Origin: a virus
Lineage: Duplodnaviria; Heunggongvirae; Uroviricota; Caudoviricetes
Virus record (IMG/VR): IMGVR_UViG_2698536361_000001
Direction: 5' to 3' (one strand)
Length of the DNA stretch: 33,224 bases
Shown piece after piece: positions 1,826 through 33,224 of the stretch. The notes under the pieces were generated by a model. That model saw only the letters and a list, made by a program, of their open reading frames with translations. It searched no databases and was not told the DNA's origin. How positions within the stretch are numbered: position 1 is the stretch's first letter; each line of letters starts with the position of its first letter. Made by a program: the position numbers and the translations under genes.

Positions 1826-4035
1826 TAGATTGACTCCCCCATTTGTGCCTCAGTTAATTCTTTATGCCAAATGCGTAAATTTTTCACATGACCGAACAGG
1901 TGTCTGTTGCCACTGGATGATTGTCCACCGATATTAATATTACCGGCAGTATAACGTTGCAATGTATGCAGAGACGGGGAGCTGCCACCTAAAATTCCAT
2001 CAACAACAACCTGCAACTGTTTATCTTCTGTAAACTTAAAGCCAGTAACAAATTTCCTTTTCTCTCTATTCCCATATGCTTTATATTCTGTTTTTGTTCC
2101 TTTGCCATTGGTGATAATTAGCCTTTTACCACGAGTGGTAAAACCAAAATACATATAACTTTCATCAGAAACTTCAGTCGTCGCCCCTGTAATTGAGATA
2201 TTAAGCAAACGCGCAGAGCCTTCTAAATTAGGCATTTCAGAATCCCAATTAACATTAACTTCCATGAGAACACTAACTGGTGGAGTTGCCCAATTGAAAG
2301 GTATAGGTATGATTACCTGGTCACTTGCTCTCGTGGCACCGACCTCTGTTGTGATGATAAAAGATGACGCGTTTAGTCCCTTTTCGAATTGAGGGGTTGT
2401 TAACATTAATTTATCGCCAGACTTGATTGATCGTTGATGTGCTCCAAACTCAAAACGCCCATACATATTTTTTGCTTCTGGTGATTTGTAGGTAAACTCA
2501 ACACGAATCCATCCATTAGACTCTCTGAATATGTTATAAGTTGCCGCCTCACCTCCAGAATAACTCAACATATCGCCAGTCTCGCAATCAATATATGCGC
2601 CAGCGGTCAGTGTGTTACTTGAGCCATCGTCGTTAACATATGATATTCTTGGACGCAACGTGATAATACCATCCCCACTTACTTTTTTAACTCTGCAGGA
2701 TAAAGTAACTGATTCATTTGCCGAAACTGAAATAACCCTGGTATATCCAGTAGAAATTAATGTCGCCCTTTCAGTTGTGGATGTTTCTTTAACGCCAAAC
2801 AAACCATAACTGAAACCATACTCATCAACTCCCGTGGTAATAGTTAAGTTAGCAGTGTCATAGTTCCACGATACTGGTGTATTCGTATAAGAAAAAGTAT
2901 TCGTTCTCTGACCTTCAATGAGCAGACCATCTTTTTCAAAACGTGGTTCATTTATCGCTGATTCAGCAAAACACCCAGACTTATCTATATACGTTGCAGT
3001 TGACGCCCTGGTAAATGAAACAACCTTTTCAGACGGCAATGCAATAACATCGTCACCAACTGTGATGCTCTTATATCCAGGAGCAAACCCGGTAATCATA
3101 TCCAGTGAATCGTTAAACGGTATCCACACCTCAGGTAACGGCTGTAAGACATATTTATACGGCTCCGCAGCCTGGCTTGCGTACTCTCTGGCTGCATCTT
3201 CGCTTGCTTTAGCTGCCGTCTGGCTTGCTGCCGATGCTTTCGCTGAGTTCGCAGCCGCTGTTTCGCTCGCCTTTGCGTTGGTTTCACTGGTTTTTGCTGC
3301 TTTTTGACTGTTAGCTGATGCAGTGGCAGAAGCAGCCGCCGCACTTGCAGAACCAGCTGCAGCACTCTCGCTTTCGGCTGCTGCAGCCTGACTACTTTTC
3401 GCCGCAGTTTCGCTGGCTTTGGCATTCGTTTCGCTGGTTTTCGCTGCCGTCTGGCTGGACTTCGCGTTGGTTTCGCTCGTCTTTGCGGCTGTCTCACTGT
3501 TTTTCGCGTTGGTTTCTGATTTTTTGGCTGCAGTCGCGGAGTTTGCCGATGCAGTCTGTGAGGCCGCTGCCGCCTGTGCGCTGTTAGCTGCGTTCGTTTC
3601 TGAGGTTTTCGCCGCGTTCTTCGATGATGCCGCTGCTGTTTCGGATTTCTTTGCCGCCGCTGCGCTCTGAGAGGCGGCTTCAGCGTTGCGTGCCGCTTCT
3701 TCCACCATTTCCTCAAAACGACGCAATGCCTCCGGCATGACATCATCTTCCGTCATGGCACCGAGAAAATCATTCAGCGTCCCCGGCTTAGAATCTTCAT
3801 ACACGGTGATGGTCCCGGCATGTGAAGGCGGAAAACCTTCAACCAGCAGGATAACGCTGTACTGGCCATACTCAACATCCATGCTGTAACGCCCGGCTTC
3901 ATCCGGATTTTCAGAGGCCACCGTGTTCACCAGTACCGTGGTGCTGTTACGCTTTGCCTTCAGTTGAATAGTGCAGTTCTGTATTGGTTTTCCCGCACCA
4001 TCTTTCAGCACACCTGAGATTTTTACTGCTGCCAT
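1825..4035 (-). CDS. stf: Side tail fibre protein Stf, chimeric: lambda-like N-terminus, Ala/Ser/Thr-rich repeat shaft, divergent C-terminal region ending in a LamG/ConA-like motif
   Basis: N-terminus MAAVKISGVLKDGAGKPIQNCTIQLKAKRNST matches lambda Stf; repeat units KTSETNAKxS; C-terminus GHVKNLRIWHKELTEAQM resembles a LamG jelly-roll end. ATG at 4035 preceded by GGAG (the ORF track starts at a GTG at 4041). Confidence 0.85.
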   Translation of the reverse strand: MAAVKISGVLKDGAGKPIQNCTIQLKAKRNSTTVLVNTVASENPDEAGRYSMDVEYGQYSVILLVEGFPPSHAGTITVYEDSKPGTLNDFLGAMTEDDVMPEALRRFEEMVEEAARNAEAASQSAAAAKKSETAAASSKNAAKTSETNAANSAQAAAASQTASANSATAAKKSETNAKNSETAAKTSETNAKSSQTAAKTSETNAKASETAAKSSQAAAAESESAAAGSASAAAASATASANSQKAAKTSETNAKASETAAANSAKASAASQTAAKASEDAAREYASQAAEPYKYVLQPLPEVWIPFNDSLDMITGFAPGYKSITVGDDVIALPSEKVVSFTRASTATYIDKSGCFAESAINEPRFEKDGLLIEGQRTNTFSYTNTPVSWNYDTANLTITTGVDEYGFSYGLFGVKETSTTERATLISTGYTRVISVSANESVTLSCRVKKVSGDGIITLRPRISYVNDDGSSNTLTAGAYIDCETGDMLSYSGGEAATYNIFRESNGWIRVEFTYKSPEAKNMYGRFEFGAHQRSIKSGDKLMLTTPQFEKGLNASSFIITTEVGATRASDQVIIPIPFNWATPPVSVLMEVNVNWDSEMPNLEGSARLLNISITGATTEVSDESYMYFGFTTRGKRLIITNGKGTKTEYKAYGNREKRKFVTGFKFTEDKQLQVVVDGILGGSSPSLHTLQRYTAGNINIGGQSSSGNRHLFGHVKNLRIWHKELTEAQMGESI

Positions 4036-4099: not shown

Positions 4100-4699
4100 T
4101 CAGAACTTATAACCGACACCCACGATGAAACCGTCAGTGCGCCAGTCACCACTGCCGGAGCCTTCATAAGCAATATCAATGGCCACGGATTCGGTCGGGT
4201 TAAACTGCACGCCAGCTCCCCACGCCAGAGACGTGTTGCTGTGGCGACCGTCATCACTTCCGGTCAGCACATCGTGCGTTTTCCCCTTGTTGTCAGTTAC
4301 GCGGAGGTAATCCCCGGAAAAAGTCGAAACACGGCTGTAAGCCATACCCGCCATCGCATACGCGCTGAACCATTCATTCACGCGCACAGACGGCCCCGCC
4401 ATCACGCTGAACCAGCGGTTACGCACGGAATCTTTATGCCAGCGGGTATCGCTGTAACGGGTCAGCTGACGATTCTTGTATCCTGCATAACTGAATGACG
4501 TCACCAGCCCCAGCGTGTCCGTAAATTCATAACGGTATTTCACGTTAATGCCCTTCAGGTCATCACTGCCTGGCATATCAGTATGGGTCTGAAGATACCC
4601 GGCGCTTAGTGTGGACTGATGCTCTGCTGCGCTCGCTGGCGTACCAGCGGCAACCAGCCAGACTACTGCGGACAGAATAACAGCACATAATTTACGCAT
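4100..4699 (-). CDS. lom: Outer membrane protein Lom (Ail/Lom family beta-barrel)
   Basis: 199 aa, signal peptide MRKLCAVILSAVVWLVAAGTPASA, ends ...GFIVGVGYKF; matches lambda Lom; RBS GAGAGG before the ATG. Confidence 0.9.
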   Translation of the reverse strand: MRKLCAVILSAVVWLVAAGTPASAAEHQSTLSAGYLQTHTDMPGSDDLKGINVKYRYEFTDTLGLVTSFSYAGYKNRQLTRYSDTRWHKDSVRNRWFSVMAGPSVRVNEWFSAYAMAGMAYSRVSTFSGDYLRVTDNKGKTHDVLTGSDDGRHSNTSLAWGAGVQFNPTESVAIDIAYEGSGSGDWRTDGFIVGVGYKF

Positions 4700-24124: not shown

Positions 24125-24418
24125 ATGAAAAAAATGTTGTTTTCTGCCGCTCTGGCAATGCTTATTACAGGATGTGCTCAACAGACGTTTACTGTTGGAA
24201 ACAAACCGACAGCAGTAACACCAAAGGAAACCATCACCCATCATTTCTTCGTTTCGGGAATTGGACAGGAGAAAACTGTTGATGCAGCCAAAATTTGTGG
24301 CGGCGCAGAAAATGTTGTTAAAACAGAAACCCAGCAAACATTCGTAAATGGATTGCTCGGTTTTATTACTTTAGGCATTTATACTCCGCTGGAAGCGCGT
24401 GTCTATTGCTCACAATAA
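24125..24418 (+). CDS. bor: Bor lipoprotein (serum-resistance associated)
   Basis: MKKMLFSAALAMLITGCAQQTFTV... 97 aa, lipobox LITGC; near-identical to lambda Bor. Confidence 0.9.
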   Translation: MKKMLFSAALAMLITGCAQQTFTVGNKPTAVTPKETITHHFFVSGIGQEKTVDAAKICGGAENVVKTETQQTFVNGLLGFITLGIYTPLEARVYCSQ

Positions 24419-26301: not shown

Positions 26302-27384
26302 ATGAAAAAATTAACAGTGGCAATTTCTGCTGTAGCTGCATCAGTACTGATGGCGATGTCTGCTCAGGCAGCTGAAATTTATAATAAAGACAGTAACAAG
26401 CTGGATCTATACGGGAAAGTTAATGCCAAGCACTACTTTTCCTCTAATGATGCAGATGATGGTGATACTACTTATGCCCGTCTTGGCTTCAAAGGTGAAA
26501 CCCAAATCAACGATCAACTGACTGGTTTCGGTCAGTGGGAATATGAATTCAAAGGCAACCGTGCTGAATCTCAAGGTTCTTCCAAAGACAAAACCCGTCT
26601 TGCATTTGCAGGCCTGAAATTTGGTGATTACGGCTCAATCGATTACGGCCGTAACTACGGTGTAGCATACGACATCGGTGCGTGGACTGACGTCCTGCCA
26701 GAATTCGGTGGTGATACCTGGACCCAAACAGATGTGTTCATGACTGGTCGCACCACAGGTGTTGCAACCTATCGTAACAACGACTTCTTTGGTCTGGTCG
26801 ATGGCCTGAACTTTGCTGCTCAGTATCAGGGTAAAAATGACCGCACTGACGTAACTGAAGCCAATGGTGATGGTTTCGGTTTCTCCACTACTTATGAGTA
26901 TGAAGGATTCGGCGTGGGTGCAACCTATGCTAAATCAGATCGCACTGACGGTCAGGTCGCCTATGGTAAGAGCAAATTCAATGCCTCCGGCAAAAATGCG
27001 GAAGTATGGGCTGCAGGCCTGAAATATGATGCGAACAATATCTATCTGGCTACCACATATTCTGAAACTCAGAATATGACCGTTTTTGGTAATAACCATA
27101 TTGCAAACAAAGCACAAAACTTTGAAGCAGTAGCACAATATCAGTTTGACTTCGGTCTGCGACCATCTGTTGCTTACCTTCAGTCAAAAGGTAAAGACCT
27201 TGGTGTTCATGGTGACCGAGACTTAGTCAAGTATGTCGATGTCGGTGCTACTTACTACTTTAATAAAAACATGTCCACTTTTGTTGATTACAAAATCAAC
27301 TTAATTGACGATAGTAAGTTTACCAAAACAGCTGGTATTGATACCGACGACATCGTCGCTGTAGGTCTGGTTTATCAGTTCTAA
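26302..27384 (+). CDS. nmpC: Outer-membrane general porin, OmpC/OmpF family (phage-borne NmpC/Lc type)
   Basis: 360 aa, signal peptide ...AMSAQA, porin C-terminus ...VAVGLVYQF; matches NmpC/Lc as remembered. Confidence 0.95.
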
Positions 27385-28991: not shown

Positions 28992-29446
28992 TACGCCTCC
29001 TGCTTGTCGCGCAGCAGCTGGAACTCGCAGCGCTGCGGAATAGTCAGGTGGCAGCCAATATTCATCGCCCAGGCTTCAACCTTACACAGGAAGACATACA
29101 TCTCTCCGGTATCAAGATCGGAGGTATGGCGTAACGACTGGATAGTAGTGATTTCGCCGGTTACGACATCAACCAGGTCCTTGGTTTCATAACCGAGGTA
29201 TGTGTGTTTGAGAGCATCTTTTACCCATGCTGCGGTAGCGAACGATTTCCCCCTGCTGATGAGGTATTCACTGATTTCGCTGTACCACATATGGCTGAGT
29301 GCATTCTGGGAAAGACTGCGTTTCTCACGCCACGGTTTAAGCACCATGCGAAAGCATTTTCCGTCCTCCAGATAAGGCTGGATCTGCTGGCCGAAAGCGG
29401 TGAAGTTGCCGCGATGCAATTTGATGCCATCTTGTGGGAGGTTCAC
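28991..29446 (-). CDS. ybcN: YbcN family protein (nin-region protein of DLP12-type phages)
   Basis: 151 aa, matches DLP12 YbcN as remembered. Confidence 0.8.
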
Positions 29447-29929
29447 GATTCACCTCCGCAGAGGCCAAACGCTGGATGCAAAAAATCGCAGGTGCATTTC
29501 TGCATCTGTGAATGGAGAAGATAGGTTGGATTGTATGTGCGCATAAACGTCCCCGTTTAGCGCAGAAGTCACAGGAGTTGTTCAGGCTCCGGTGATACAA
29601 TTATGGCGAATTGATTATTCATAATCAAACAAGATAAGGTCTCAAACTTCATGCAAGCCAAGATTTATTTCTGACAGAATTATACAAAGAAGCTATTGGT
29701 CAGAATCTACTCGGACTGTAAAACATACGCATAACCTTAAGCTCTCACTTTAAGCATTGTTGAAATAATAGCCGTCAAGTACAACCTTAACCACGACTGG
29801 GATATTTCCCTAGCTACCACGAGTTGTACTGCTATTAAACTGCCGTTAAATTCAGTAAGAGAATTTCATCCGATAAGTCAAGGCATGTAAAACATAAAAA
29901 TTAACAAGATATTATCATCTGCAACACTA

Positions 29930-30937
29930 TTGTATGGTATGTCAATGGCCATGTCGGTCGGGAGTTGTGCAACACCTGTCCAGACTAATTTTCCTGGTTA
30001 CACCCCGGGTGCAGATATCATTAGTGTTTCACCCACCAGAAACCAGGTCGATCTCATTGGTGATGTTGTTTATTCCCAGATAAAAGGAACTCGTTCTGTC
30101 AGACAGCTTCACATGTCAGTTCTTGTCCCGCGAACAAATGATTTAAAACCAGCCATTATTTATTATCCCGGCGGCGGATTCATGTCTTCTGAACATGACA
30201 AATTTATTGAAATGAGAATGGCTCTGGCTGAAGCTGGTTTTGTTGTGGCCGCTGTAGAATACAGAACAATTCCTGATACATTTCCAGCACCAGTTGAGGA
30301 TGGGAAAGCTGCAATACGTTACTTGAGAGAACATGCCAGCGATTATGGGATTGATCCTCAAAGAATCGGAGTTCTGGGTGACTCTGCCGGTGGATGGCTT
30401 GCCCAGATGATGGGAACTACAAATGGTGACAAAACCTTTAATAAAGGTGACTTTCTTCAGCAATCAGCAGATGTTCAGGCAGTTGCCACACTTTATGGGA
30501 TTTCTGACTTGTTGAATATTGGCGAGGGGTTCCCTGAATCAGTGCAGGAGGTTCATCGATCTCCTGCCGTAACCGAAGCCTTAATGATCAATGGCCCTGC
30601 ATTCAGAAGTTTTGCGGGAGCCCCCATAACAGCGTCAAAAGAAAAAGCGCTAAACGCCAGTCCAATCGGACATATGAAAGGAGTAAAACCCCCATTTCTT
30701 ATTATGCATGGTAGCAAAGACACTCTGGTTTCACCTGAGCAAAGCGCCAAACTATTCAGGATGTTGAAGAAGAACGGCGATAACGCTGAGTACGTTCTGG
30801 TAGAAGGGGCTGAGCATGGCGATAATACATGGTATCAGCCAATTATTATAAACAGAGTTGTTGAGTGGTTTACTAAAAACCTGGGAACCCCCATAAAAAC
30901 CGCTACCCAACAACAAAAAACAAACGCTGACCTGTAA
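29930..30937 (+). CDS. Alpha/beta-hydrolase esterase/lipase (HSL-like), probably an ex-lipoprotein with a damaged 5' end
   Basis: Oxyanion-hole YPGGGF, nucleophile elbow GDSAGG, downstream Asp/His (HGSKDT, AEHGD). First codon of the listed ORF is TTG; in-frame ATG-TAA at 29885..29890 precedes a lipoprotein-like leader. Confidence 0.75.
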   Translation: MYGMSMAMSVGSCATPVQTNFPGYTPGADIISVSPTRNQVDLIGDVVYSQIKGTRSVRQLHMSVLVPRTNDLKPAIIYYPGGGFMSSEHDKFIEMRMALAEAGFVVAAVEYRTIPDTFPAPVEDGKAAIRYLREHASDYGIDPQRIGVLGDSAGGWLAQMMGTTNGDKTFNKGDFLQQSADVQAVATLYGISDLLNIGEGFPESVQEVHRSPAVTEALMINGPAFRSFAGAPITASKEKALNASPIGHMKGVKPPFLIMHGSKDTLVSPEQSAKLFRMLKKNGDNAEYVLVEGAEHGDNTWYQPIIINRVVEWFTKNLGTPIKTATQQQKTNADL

Positions 30938-30945
30938 AAAGCAGC

Positions 30946-30963
30946 CCGCACTTATGCGGGCTA
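30946..30963 (+). terminator. Putative terminator hairpin after the esterase gene
   Basis: GCCCGCA-CTTA-TGCGGGC immediately after the stop; weak U-tract. Confidence 0.35.
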
Positions 30964-33068: not shown

Positions 33069-33224
33069 TTAATGTGGTGTGCTTCGTGACAATAAATTAA
33101 TAACCAACACACCGGCACAAATCAACATCATGCCTATAATGGCTGGCAGGTCCAACCGTTGGCCGAAAAATCCCCATGATAGTAAGCTAATCAGGACAAT
33201 ACCGACTCCTGACCAGATAGCATA
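33069..33224 (-). CDS. emrE: Multidrug SMR efflux transporter EmrE, 3' end only (gene runs off the window)
   Basis: Minus-strand translation [51 protein letters not shown] matches the EmrE C-terminus. Confidence 0.85.

What the first reader, a model, noticed from the sequence alone, without database searches (positions are those of the whole stretch)
29885..30937. Esterase gene looks like a lipoprotein whose second codon is a stop
The hydrolase frame extends upstream as ATG-TAA-AAC-ATA-AAA-ATT-AAC-AAG-ATA-TTA-TCA-TCT-GCA-ACA-CTA-TTG-TAT-GGT-ATG... If codon 2 were sense, this would encode a textbook lipoprotein leader (basic n-region, hydrophobic core ILSSATLLYGMSMAM, lipobox-like SVGSC). As it stands, translation can only begin at TTG 29930 or ATG 29939, with no Shine-Dalgarno sequence and a decapitated signal peptide. 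Either the gene is freshly inactivated, there is a base-call error at 29888, or an unusual restart is used.
Basis: seen in the sequence. Interest (0 to 1): 0.65.

Follow-up and report, generated by a model that had tools for sequence, protein, structure and literature searches.

The report
Start-codon loss in prophage esterase gene
The ATG-TAA is an old, harmless part of the untranslated leader of a phage-borne lipoprotein esterase gene; the real lesion in this strain is that the true start codon 9 bases downstream has mutated from ATG to ATA, an ordinary clone-specific knock-down or knock-out allele.

Summary
The sequence facts are right: ATG-TAA at 29885-29890 lies in frame with a hydrolase ORF whose upstream extension encodes a lipoprotein leader. 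In 677 of 682 complete E. coli records carrying this gene, and in viable lambdoid phages, the same ATG-TAA is present. There the gene starts 9 nt downstream at ATG-AAA-ATT (window 29894), 10 nt after an AAGG Shine-Dalgarno, giving a 347-aa protein (MKINKILSS...SVGS-C25). That ATG-AAA start is shared by homologues at 75-96% identity. The window has ATA there (G->A at 29896). Only 4 complete genomes share it (UPEC132, GN02350, N50, YP3) and 10 of 10 draft assemblies sampled, so it is a real clonal variant, not a base-call error. A sister strain that differs at 11 of 25,000 bases still has ATG. AUA initiates at roughly 0.02-3% of AUG in E. coli, and the in-frame downstream starts lack the n-region and fail the lipobox rule. 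The exported lipoprotein is therefore largely lost. The protein is a BD-FAE-family esterase with an intact Ser164/Asp276/His308 triad, carried as a moron in a DLP12-type prophage. Relatives sit next to phenolic acid decarboxylase genes, suggesting a feruloyl-type esterase. This is ordinary biology, of low interest.

The parts
29880..29883 (+). Shine-Dalgarno-like AAGG that serves the conserved start at 29894 (10-nt gap). It abuts ATG 29885 and so cannot serve it.
   Evidence: The homologue L014 has GAGG at the same 10-nt distance from its ATG-AAA start.
29885..29890 (+). ATG-TAA 'start-stop' in the 5' leader. It is conserved in all E. coli and phage copies and is not the lesion.
   Evidence: The outgroup Escherichia sp. 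MOD1-EC7003 has ATG-CAA.
29894..29896 (+). ATA at the position of the conserved ATG start codon (G->A at 29896). This is the real lesion of this allele.
   Evidence: Alignments. The ATA 61-mer is exact in 4 of 682 records and the ATG 61-mer in 677 of 682. 10 of 10 sampled draft assemblies with this allele have ATA.
29894..29968 (+). Coding region for the lipoprotein signal peptide MKINKILSSATLLYGMSMAMSVGS|C, with the Cys25 codon TGT at 29966-29968.
   Evidence: A PROSITE PS51257-type rule is met only by the form that starts at 29894.
29990..29992 (+). Codon 33, TTT (Phe). This is the second clone-specific substitution (C->T at 29990, L33F), at a position that is Leu in 113 of 120 homologues and never Phe.
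29894..30937 (+). Full esterase reading frame (347 codons plus stop), BD-FAE / alpha-beta hydrolase. Ser164 is at 30383-30385, Asp276 at 30719-30721 and His308 at 30815-30817.
   Evidence: Pfam PF20434 E=5.5e-45. The triad is invariant in 120 of 120 homologues. PGAP aa in ATG alleles.
29945..30937 (+). RefSeq/PGAP gene model for this allele (330 aa, WP_001251751.1), starting at an internal ATG inside the signal peptide.
30942..30963 (.). GC-rich hairpin (CAGCCCGCACTTATGCGGGCTA) just after the stop codon. It is terminator-like, and the T-run lies on the minus-strand side.

Best explanation
The gene is cargo (a 'moron') of a DLP12-type lambdoid prophage. It encodes a 347-aa exported lipoprotein esterase of the BD-FAE family. 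Its normal translation start is ATG at window position 29894, 10 nt downstream of an AAGG Shine-Dalgarno. The ATG-TAA at 29885-29890 is part of the 5' leader and overlaps the spacer. In the clone this window comes from, a G->A transition at 29896 changed the start codon to ATA. Shown here: the mutation, its rarity, its clonality, the conservation of the ATG-AAA start, and the integrity of the rest of the ORF. Inferred: initiation at AUA falls to roughly 0.02-3% of the AUG level. Any initiation at the in-frame ATGs 29939, 29945 or 29951, or at TTG 29930, yields protein without the basic n-region and with too short an h-region. Such protein would stay cytoplasmic and unlipidated. The clone has therefore largely lost the surface or periplasm-facing esterase: it carries a recent hypomorphic or null allele. 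The likely substrates of the intact enzyme are hydroxycinnamoyl (feruloyl) or acetyl esters of plant material. This is inferred from the family and from gene neighbourhood.
For: (1) The alignment of seven E. coli alleles differs at the start only in ATA versus ATG, and ATG-TAA is invariant. (2) PGAP starts the 347-aa CDS at the equivalent of 29894 in ATG alleles and in phage 4A7. (3) The ATA 61-mer is exact in 4 of 682 records and the ATG 61-mer in 677 of 682. (4) ATG-AAA is the shared start in homologues at 96%, 80%, 80% and 75% identity, and L014 has GAGG at the same spacing. (5) The four ATA genomes are independent assemblies from the USA, China and Australia plus one of unstated country, from human blood, urine and CSF and a dog uterus. 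In addition, 10 of 10 draft assemblies carry ATA. It is therefore not a sequencing error. (6) The sister strain MS20658 differs at 11 of 25,000 nt and has ATG, so the change is recent. (7) dN/dS among intact alleles is 0.11-0.21, so the gene is normally under purifying selection. (8) The lipobox rule is met only by the 29894 form. (9) AUA initiates at 1-2% (range 0.02-3%) of AUG in E. coli reporters (bioRxiv 10.1101/063800). (10) BD-FAE scores 153.9 bits against a cutoff of 26.8, and Ser164/Asp276/His308 are invariant. (11) Phenolic acid decarboxylase genes lie next to homologues in four enterobacterial loci, a Selenomonas MAG and Erwinia.
Against: There is no expression data, so the size of the drop at AUA in this leader is extrapolated from reporter studies. 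The ORF is still fully open, and identical over 1,644 bp in every sampled member of the clone. This is compatible either with a very young null allele or with retained low-level function. The weak GGU 5 nt before ATG 29945 (dG -2.8) is not much worse than the native AAGG (dG -3.2), so a cytoplasmic truncated esterase could be made in some quantity. No consensus sigma-70 promoter was found upstream. Lipidation and substrate are predictions.
Confidence: 0.85

Rival explanations
1. One reading: the gene originally started at ATG 29885, and a fresh nonsense mutation or a base-call error at 29888 made codon 2 a stop.
For: Two outgroups have a sense codon after the upstream in-frame ATG: CAA in Escherichia sp. 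MOD1-EC7003 and AAT in L019. TAA is therefore probably derived from CAA.
Against: TAA is present in 677 of 682 exact 61-mers and in viable phages, alongside intact 347-aa genes under purifying selection. It is therefore old and tolerated. AAGG abuts ATG 29885 with 1 nt between them, so that ATG has no usable SD. L014 and L016 lack the upstream ATG altogether.
Confidence: 0.03
2. ATA 29894 is a working, if weak, start codon. On this view the clone still makes the full lipoprotein at a few percent of the normal level, and this is a tuned-down allele rather than a dead one. NCBI's pipeline has annotated it this way in many draft genomes.
For: The SD and spacing are untouched. AUA gives measurable initiation. 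A 347-aa product beginning with M at ATA is recorded on 104 contigs, and all 10 checked have ATA. The ORF is intact in every sampled member.
Against: AUA is 30- to 5000-fold weaker than AUG. The ATA codon is confined to one young clone, so nothing shows selection for it. The only other clone-specific change in the gene is L33F at a conserved Leu, which fits relaxed constraint better.
Confidence: 0.3
3. Internal initiation at ATG 29939, 29945 or 29951 (the RefSeq model uses 29945) yields a cytoplasmic, non-lipidated but catalytically intact esterase, so the enzyme is relocalised rather than lost.
For: PGAP calls 29945. A weak GGU lies 5 nt upstream. The catalytic domain, residues ~48-330, is untouched.
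Against: There is no real SD. No homologue starts there: 120 of 120 carry an N-terminal leader or are shorter gene calls within the same leader. The N-terminal remnant fails the lipobox rule. A secreted-type enzyme may not fold or find substrate in the cytoplasm.
Confidence: 0.2
4. The ATG-TAA is a functional start-stop minimal ORF. It would modulate the main start 3 nt downstream by ribosome occupancy or termination-reinitiation, and could even feed ribosomes to the ATA codon.
For: Start-stops that bind ribosomes and modestly affect host-gene expression exist in E. coli (yecJ, hslR; bioRxiv 10.1101/520783). UAAG lies 7 nt upstream of ATG 29885. CAUGU-AAA-ACAUG can form a small hairpin that joins the two ATGs.
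Against: The conservation is no more than that of the surrounding 98-100% identical DNA. The nearest outgroup has CAA, not a stop. There is no properly spaced strong SD. RNA folding is no better than for shuffled sequence (z = -0.6). 22 such ATG-stops occur in the window by composition alone.
Confidence: 0.07

Closest known systems
RefSeq alpha/beta hydrolase WP_000700204.1 / WP_000700202.1 / WP_001535299.1 (347 aa), the same gene in other E. coli and in phages 4A7, Lambda_4C10, D2, 1W, 3W, Perceval and PhiR47_2
   Same: Same locus and same leader, including ATG-TAA. 97.6-99.8% nucleotide identity.
   Different: Those copies have ATG at the start and Leu33. The window has ATA and Phe33, and RefSeq models it as a 330-aa protein (WP_001251751.1).
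BD-FAE family esterases (Pfam PF20434); solved relatives 6nkf (Lip_vut4 C3L), 6mly (bifunctional GH43-CE), 6xyc/6tkx (acetyl xylan / carbohydrate esterases)
   Same: The full domain matches (E=5.5e-45; 6nkf E~1e-37 over residues 48-330). GDSAGG nucleophile elbow, PGGG oxyanion motif, Asp and His.
   Different: Identity to the solved proteins is low. This protein has a lipoprotein leader and is phage-borne. Its substrate is untested.
Lambdoid-phage lipoprotein morons such as Bor/Iss
   Same: A small independent gene on the strand opposite to the phage genes, encoding an exported lipoprotein. The same prophage carries iss, a porin gene, lom and emrE.
   Different: This one is an enzyme, not a serum-resistance factor. 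It occupies the slot held by ybcL-ybcM in K-12 DLP12.
Start-stop minimal ORFs of E. coli (yecJ, hslR; Meydan et al.)
   Same: AUG followed immediately by a stop codon, close to a main-ORF start.
   Different: Those were defined by ribosome occupancy and lie inside genes, out of frame. Here there is no occupancy data, no well-spaced SD, and the outgroup lacks the stop.
Natural non-AUG/GUG/UUG starts in E. coli (infC and pcnB use AUU; cited from my own knowledge)
   Same: A near-cognate AUN codon at a position with an intact SD.
   Different: The infC AUU is ancient, conserved and regulatory. This ATA is confined to one recent clone and replaces a conserved ATG.

Membership tests
BD-FAE / alpha-beta hydrolase esterases (PF20434) | Match to the family HMM above the curated gathering score | tested here: met
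   153.9 bits against a cutoff of 26.8, residues 80-290 on profile positions 7-214 of 215.
BD-FAE / alpha-beta hydrolase esterases (PF20434) | Catalytic Ser in a G-x-S-x-G elbow, plus acid Asp and base His | tested here: met
   GDSAGG (Ser164), Asp276 and His308 are invariant in 19 diverse and in 120 homologues, and are present in the window allele.
BD-FAE / alpha-beta hydrolase esterases (PF20434) | Feruloyl or acetyl esterase activity | not testable with these tools
   Context only: phenolic acid decarboxylase genes lie adjacent to homologues, and one source names a Dickeya homologue 'ferulate esterase'.
Bacterial lipoproteins (PROSITE PS51257-type signal) | K/R in the first 7 residues, an uncharged h-region, and a lipobox [LIVMFWSTAG]2-[LIVMFYSTAGCQ]-[AGS]-C with Cys at position 15-35 | tested here: met
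   Met by the frame starting at 29894 (K2, K5, SVGS-C25). Not met by forms starting at TTG 29930 or at ATG 29939, 29945 or 29951.
Bacterial lipoproteins (PROSITE PS51257-type signal) | Lgt/LspA-dependent lipidation and cleavage | not testable with these tools
   Needs globomycin sensitivity or palmitate labelling.
   677 of 682 E. coli records and viable phages carry the same TAA with an intact gene that starts 9 nt downstream. Only outgroups have CAA or AAT.
Start-codon-loss allele | A non-canonical codon at the position of a start codon that is conserved across homologues, with the rest of the ORF and the SD unchanged | tested here: met
Start-stop regulatory minimal ORF | Ribosome initiation at the AUG, a suitably spaced SD, and conservation beyond background | tested here: inconclusive
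   The sequence pattern is present. The SD is only UAAG at 7 nt. The outgroup has CAA. Ribosome occupancy cannot be tested here.
Phage moron | An independent gene between phage genes, often on the opposite strand with its own terminator, and carried by functional phages | tested here: met
   It lies on the + strand between ybcN/ylcH-like and ybcK on the - strand, followed by a hairpin. It is present in seven deposited lambdoid phage genomes. No own promoter was detected by the consensus scan.

The most novel reading that the evidence does not exclude
In this widespread ExPEC clone the AUA codon, possibly helped by ribosomes that load at the adjacent AUG-UAA start-stop, serves as a genuine low-efficiency start. 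The phage-borne outer-membrane esterase would then be kept at about 1% of its normal level rather than lost. That would make it a natural AUA-initiated E. coli gene.
Probability: 0.1. Interest if true: 0.4.

Novelty: new member of a known kind. Interest (0 to 1): 0.18.

Why it matters
The main value is as a correction. The apparent 'stop at codon 2' is a fixed leader feature, and the true lesion is a start-codon transition. It also exposes an annotation inconsistency. NCBI models the same DNA either as a 347-aa protein starting at ATA or as a 330-aa protein starting inside the signal peptide. This changes the predicted localisation from lipoprotein to cytoplasmic. Biologically, it records that one ExPEC clone, found in human blood, urine and CSF and in a dog uterus on three continents, has largely silenced a phage-carried exported esterase. 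About 12% of complete E. coli genomes keep this gene intact and under purifying selection. The ATG and ATA sister strains form a natural isogenic pair for asking what the enzyme does.

Tried and rejected
(1) I tested whether TAA 29888 is the stop codon of a decayed upstream phenolic acid decarboxylase gene, as the layout in relatives suggested. tblastn of two PAD proteins against window 29301-30000 gave only chance hits (E>0.7), so this was rejected. (2) Riboswitch or sRNA in the leader: there was no Rfam hit at gathering score in the whole window, nor at E<=1 in 29400-30100. (3) Leader RNA structure: MFE z-score -0.6 for both alleles. (4) Sequencing error: rejected because four independent complete genomes and 10 of 10 draft assemblies agree. 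(5) Order of the two clone-specific changes (M1I and L33F): exact-product look-ups could not separate them, because the '347-aa F33' product turned out to be ATA-start annotations. (6) The lipobox Cys->Tyr variant seen in the cluster representative P0001 has no exact match in any complete E. coli genome, so it is a rare variant and not a trend. (7) A literature search for this esterase as a lambdoid moron found nothing specific. (8) No structure prediction was run, because the Pfam and PDB sequence matches were already decisive for the fold.

Full report
OBSERVATION. ATG lies at 29885-29887 and TAA at 29888-29890. They are followed by AAC ATA AAA ATT AAC AAG ATA TTA TCA ..., in frame with a hydrolase ORF that ends at TAA 30935-30937. 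The first canonical start after the stop is TTG 29930, followed by ATG 29939, 29945 and 29951. These downstream starts have no real Shine-Dalgarno: the best anti-SD duplexes are +2.2 to -2.8 kcal/mol. An ATG followed directly by a stop is not unusual in itself. It happens at 22 of the 1209 ATGs in the window.

WHAT THE LOCUS IS. The window is a lambdoid, DLP12-type prophage of E. coli. The minus strand carries rusA, ybcO, ninE, ybcN, a ylcH-like gene, the ybcK recombinase and the tail, head and lysis genes. The plus strand carries cargo genes: iss, an ompC/nmpC-type porin and this hydrolase. In K-12 DLP12 the slot between ybcK and ylcH holds ybcL-ybcM instead. The hydrolase gene occurs in 683 records, that is 682 of 5426 complete E. 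coli genomes. It also occurs, at 100% protein identity to a common allele, in seven deposited lambdoid phage genomes: 4A7, Lambda_4C10, D2, 1W, 3W, Perceval and PhiR47_2. It is therefore a phage moron.

THE KEY COMPARISON. In alleles that are 97.6-99.8% identical, PGAP starts a 347-aa CDS at the equivalent of window 29894. The alignment shows why: those alleles read ...AAGGCATGTAAAACATGAAAATT..., whereas the window and strain UPEC132 read ...AACATAAAAATT.... ATG-TAA is invariant across all of them. The exact 61-mer with ATG, which includes ATG-TAA, is found in 677 of 682 records. The 61-mer with ATA is found in only four: UPEC132, GN02350, N50 and YP3. Phage 4A7 has the same ATG-TAA-AAC-ATG leader.

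More distant homologues confirm that ATG-AAA is the conserved start:
- Escherichia sp. MOD1-EC7003 (96% aa identity) reads ATG-CAA-AAC-ATG-AAA-ATT.
- L019 (80%) reads ATG-AAT-AAA-ATG-AAA-ATA.
- L014 (80%) reads GAGG-N10-ATG-AAA-ATA.
- L016 (75%) reads ATG-AAA-AGA.

In the window, AAGG (29880-29883) lies 10 nt before 29894. This is the same spacing as the GAGG in L014. AAGG is only 1 nt from ATG 29885, so it cannot serve that codon.

The real lesion is G->A at 29896, which changes the start codon from ATG to ATA. The two outgroups that possess the upstream in-frame ATG have a sense codon after it (CAA, AAT). TAA is therefore probably derived from CAA, but the change is old and fixed in E. coli and its phages.

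REAL VARIANT, RECENT AND CLONAL. The four ATA genomes are independent assemblies from different places and sources: USA blood, China urine, a CSF isolate and an Australian dog uterus. They are identical to the window over 25 kb. Products of this allele are recorded on hundreds of contigs in public data: 184 contigs as a 330-aa call, 72 as a 332-aa call and 104 as a 347-aa call. All ten draft assemblies I sampled from the 347-aa group have ATA and are identical to the window over 1,644 bp. This rules out a base-call error. It also shows that NCBI's pipeline sometimes annotates the ATA itself as the start.

The sister strain MS20658 differs from the window at only 11 of 25,000 positions. Two of these fall in this gene: 29896 (start codon) and 29990 (L33F). 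Position 33 is Leu in 113 of 120 homologues and never Phe. Among intact alleles, dN/dS is 0.11-0.21, so the gene is normally under purifying selection.

WHAT THE PROTEIN IS. The 347-aa form matches Pfam BD-FAE (PF20434) at E=5.5e-45, and Abhydrolase_3 more weakly. The closest solved relatives are 6nkf (Lip_vut4), 6mly (bifunctional GH43-CE) and 6xyc/6tkx (acetyl xylan and carbohydrate esterases). The PGGG motif, GDSAGG (Ser164), Asp276 and His308 are invariant in the family and intact in the window.

The N-terminus MKINKILSSATLLYGMSMAMSVGS-C25 satisfies a PROSITE PS51257-type lipobox rule. Forms starting at 29930, 29939, 29945 or 29951 do not. Residue +2 is Ala, so by the standard E. coli Lol sorting rule (established knowledge) the protein would go to the outer membrane. 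Most family members have ordinary signal-peptidase-I leaders. The E. coli protein and its closest relatives have the Cys.

Homologues sit next to phenolic acid decarboxylase genes (PF05870). This is so in four enterobacterial loci, where one has a LysR regulator nearby. It is also so in a Selenomonas MAG and, as a broken copy, in Erwinia tracheiphila. This points to a hydroxycinnamoyl (feruloyl-type) esterase. That function is an inference from context, not a test.

MECHANISM. With the SD intact but AUA in place of AUG, initiation should fall to about 1-2% of the AUG level, within a measured range of 0.02-3% (Hecht et al., bioRxiv 10.1101/063800). Any initiation at the internal ATGs gives a protein without the n-region and with a truncated h-region. 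That protein should not be exported or lipidated. My best reading, at confidence 0.85, is a recent clone-specific hypomorphic or null allele of an exported lipoprotein esterase. What I cannot resolve is how much residual protein is made. It could be residual full-length protein from AUA (rival, 0.3) or a cytoplasmic truncated form from 29945 (rival, 0.2). These two rivals are not mutually exclusive with the main statement.

A regulatory start-stop role for ATG-TAA (compare yecJ and hslR; bioRxiv 10.1101/520783) cannot be excluded. Nothing supports it beyond the sequence pattern. The outgroup has CAA, there is no well-spaced SD, and there is no special RNA structure.

DEAD ENDS.
- There is no remnant of a decarboxylase gene upstream.
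- There are no Rfam matches.
- The leader does not fold better than shuffled sequence.
- The lipobox Cys->Tyr variant of cluster representative P0001 is absent from complete genomes.
- The order of the M1I and L33F changes is unresolved.
- No literature on this gene was found.

VERDICT. This is an ordinary start-codon-loss allele of an annotated accessory gene. It is a useful annotation correction and provides a natural isogenic pair, but it is not surprising. Interest 0.18; novelty: new member of a known kind.

Noticed in passing
window 29945-30937 versus 29894-30937: NCBI annotation of the same DNA is inconsistent. RefSeq complete genomes call a 330-aa protein from ATG 29945 (WP_001251751.1). 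Many GenBank draft assemblies call a 347-aa protein that starts with Met at the ATA codon: 104 contigs, and 10 of 10 checked have ATA. The predicted localisation changes from cytoplasmic to lipoprotein accordingly.
   Followed up: yes
window 29990 (codon 33): There is a second clone-specific substitution in the gene, L33F. The position is Leu in 113 of 120 homologues and never Phe. 2 of the 11 differences from sister strain MS20658 over 25 kb fall in this 1-kb gene, and both are non-synonymous. This hints at relaxed constraint, but the numbers are too small to test.
   Followed up: partly
window 26754, 26757, 26769 (prophage ompC/nmpC-type porin gene, about 26302-27384, + strand): 3 of the 11 differences between the window and strain MS20658 cluster within 16 bp inside the phage-borne porin gene. 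This could be a small recombination patch or selection on an exposed loop.
   Followed up: no
P0001 (E. coli cluster representative) and P0004 (75% homologue), residue aligned to Cys25: Two separate lineages have Tyr in place of the lipobox Cys (TGT->TAT type change). This would turn the lipoprotein into an uncleaved or SPase-I-type protein. The E. coli variant is absent from 682 complete-genome records.
   Followed up: partly
L016-L019, L011, L008: Esterase homologues sit next to phenolic acid decarboxylase genes (PF05870) in enterobacterial metagenome contigs and in a Selenomonas MAG, one enterobacterial locus also having a LysR regulator. Erwinia tracheiphila has a frameshifted copy nearby. 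This suggests a conserved ferulate/p-coumarate release-and-decarboxylation module. The phage copy has lost the partner gene.
   Followed up: partly
L005 (U15A), L006 (A1.S1.65), L004 (S3), L003 (ZH193): Other E. coli strains show independent decay or rearrangement at this locus. There are frameshifted alleles, and a 3' end replaced next to an ISEc23 transposase. In ST131-type strains an inverse-autotransporter gene lies downstream in place of ybcK.
   Followed up: no
window 24125-24418 (iss), 4100-4699 (lom-type), 33069-33224 (emrE, cut), 3669-4035 (tail-fibre pseudogene): The prophage carries several other cargo genes (Iss lipoprotein, Lom/Ail barrel, EmrE efflux pump) and a truncated tail-fibre gene. 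Otherwise it looks structurally complete.
   Followed up: no
window 29884-29896: In ATG alleles, CATGT-AAA-ACATG is a 5-bp inverted repeat that pairs the two ATGs in a small hairpin. The G->A change breaks the last pair. Folding energies are not distinguishable from shuffled sequence.
   Followed up: partly
L007 1426-2544 (Escherichia sp. MOD1-EC7003): With CAA in place of TAA, the ORF in this cryptic-clade Escherichia is open upstream to a TTG 75 nt before the conserved ATG, giving 372 codons. Gene callers may over-extend it. P0003 (370 aa) shows a similar over-extension in L014.
   Followed up: no
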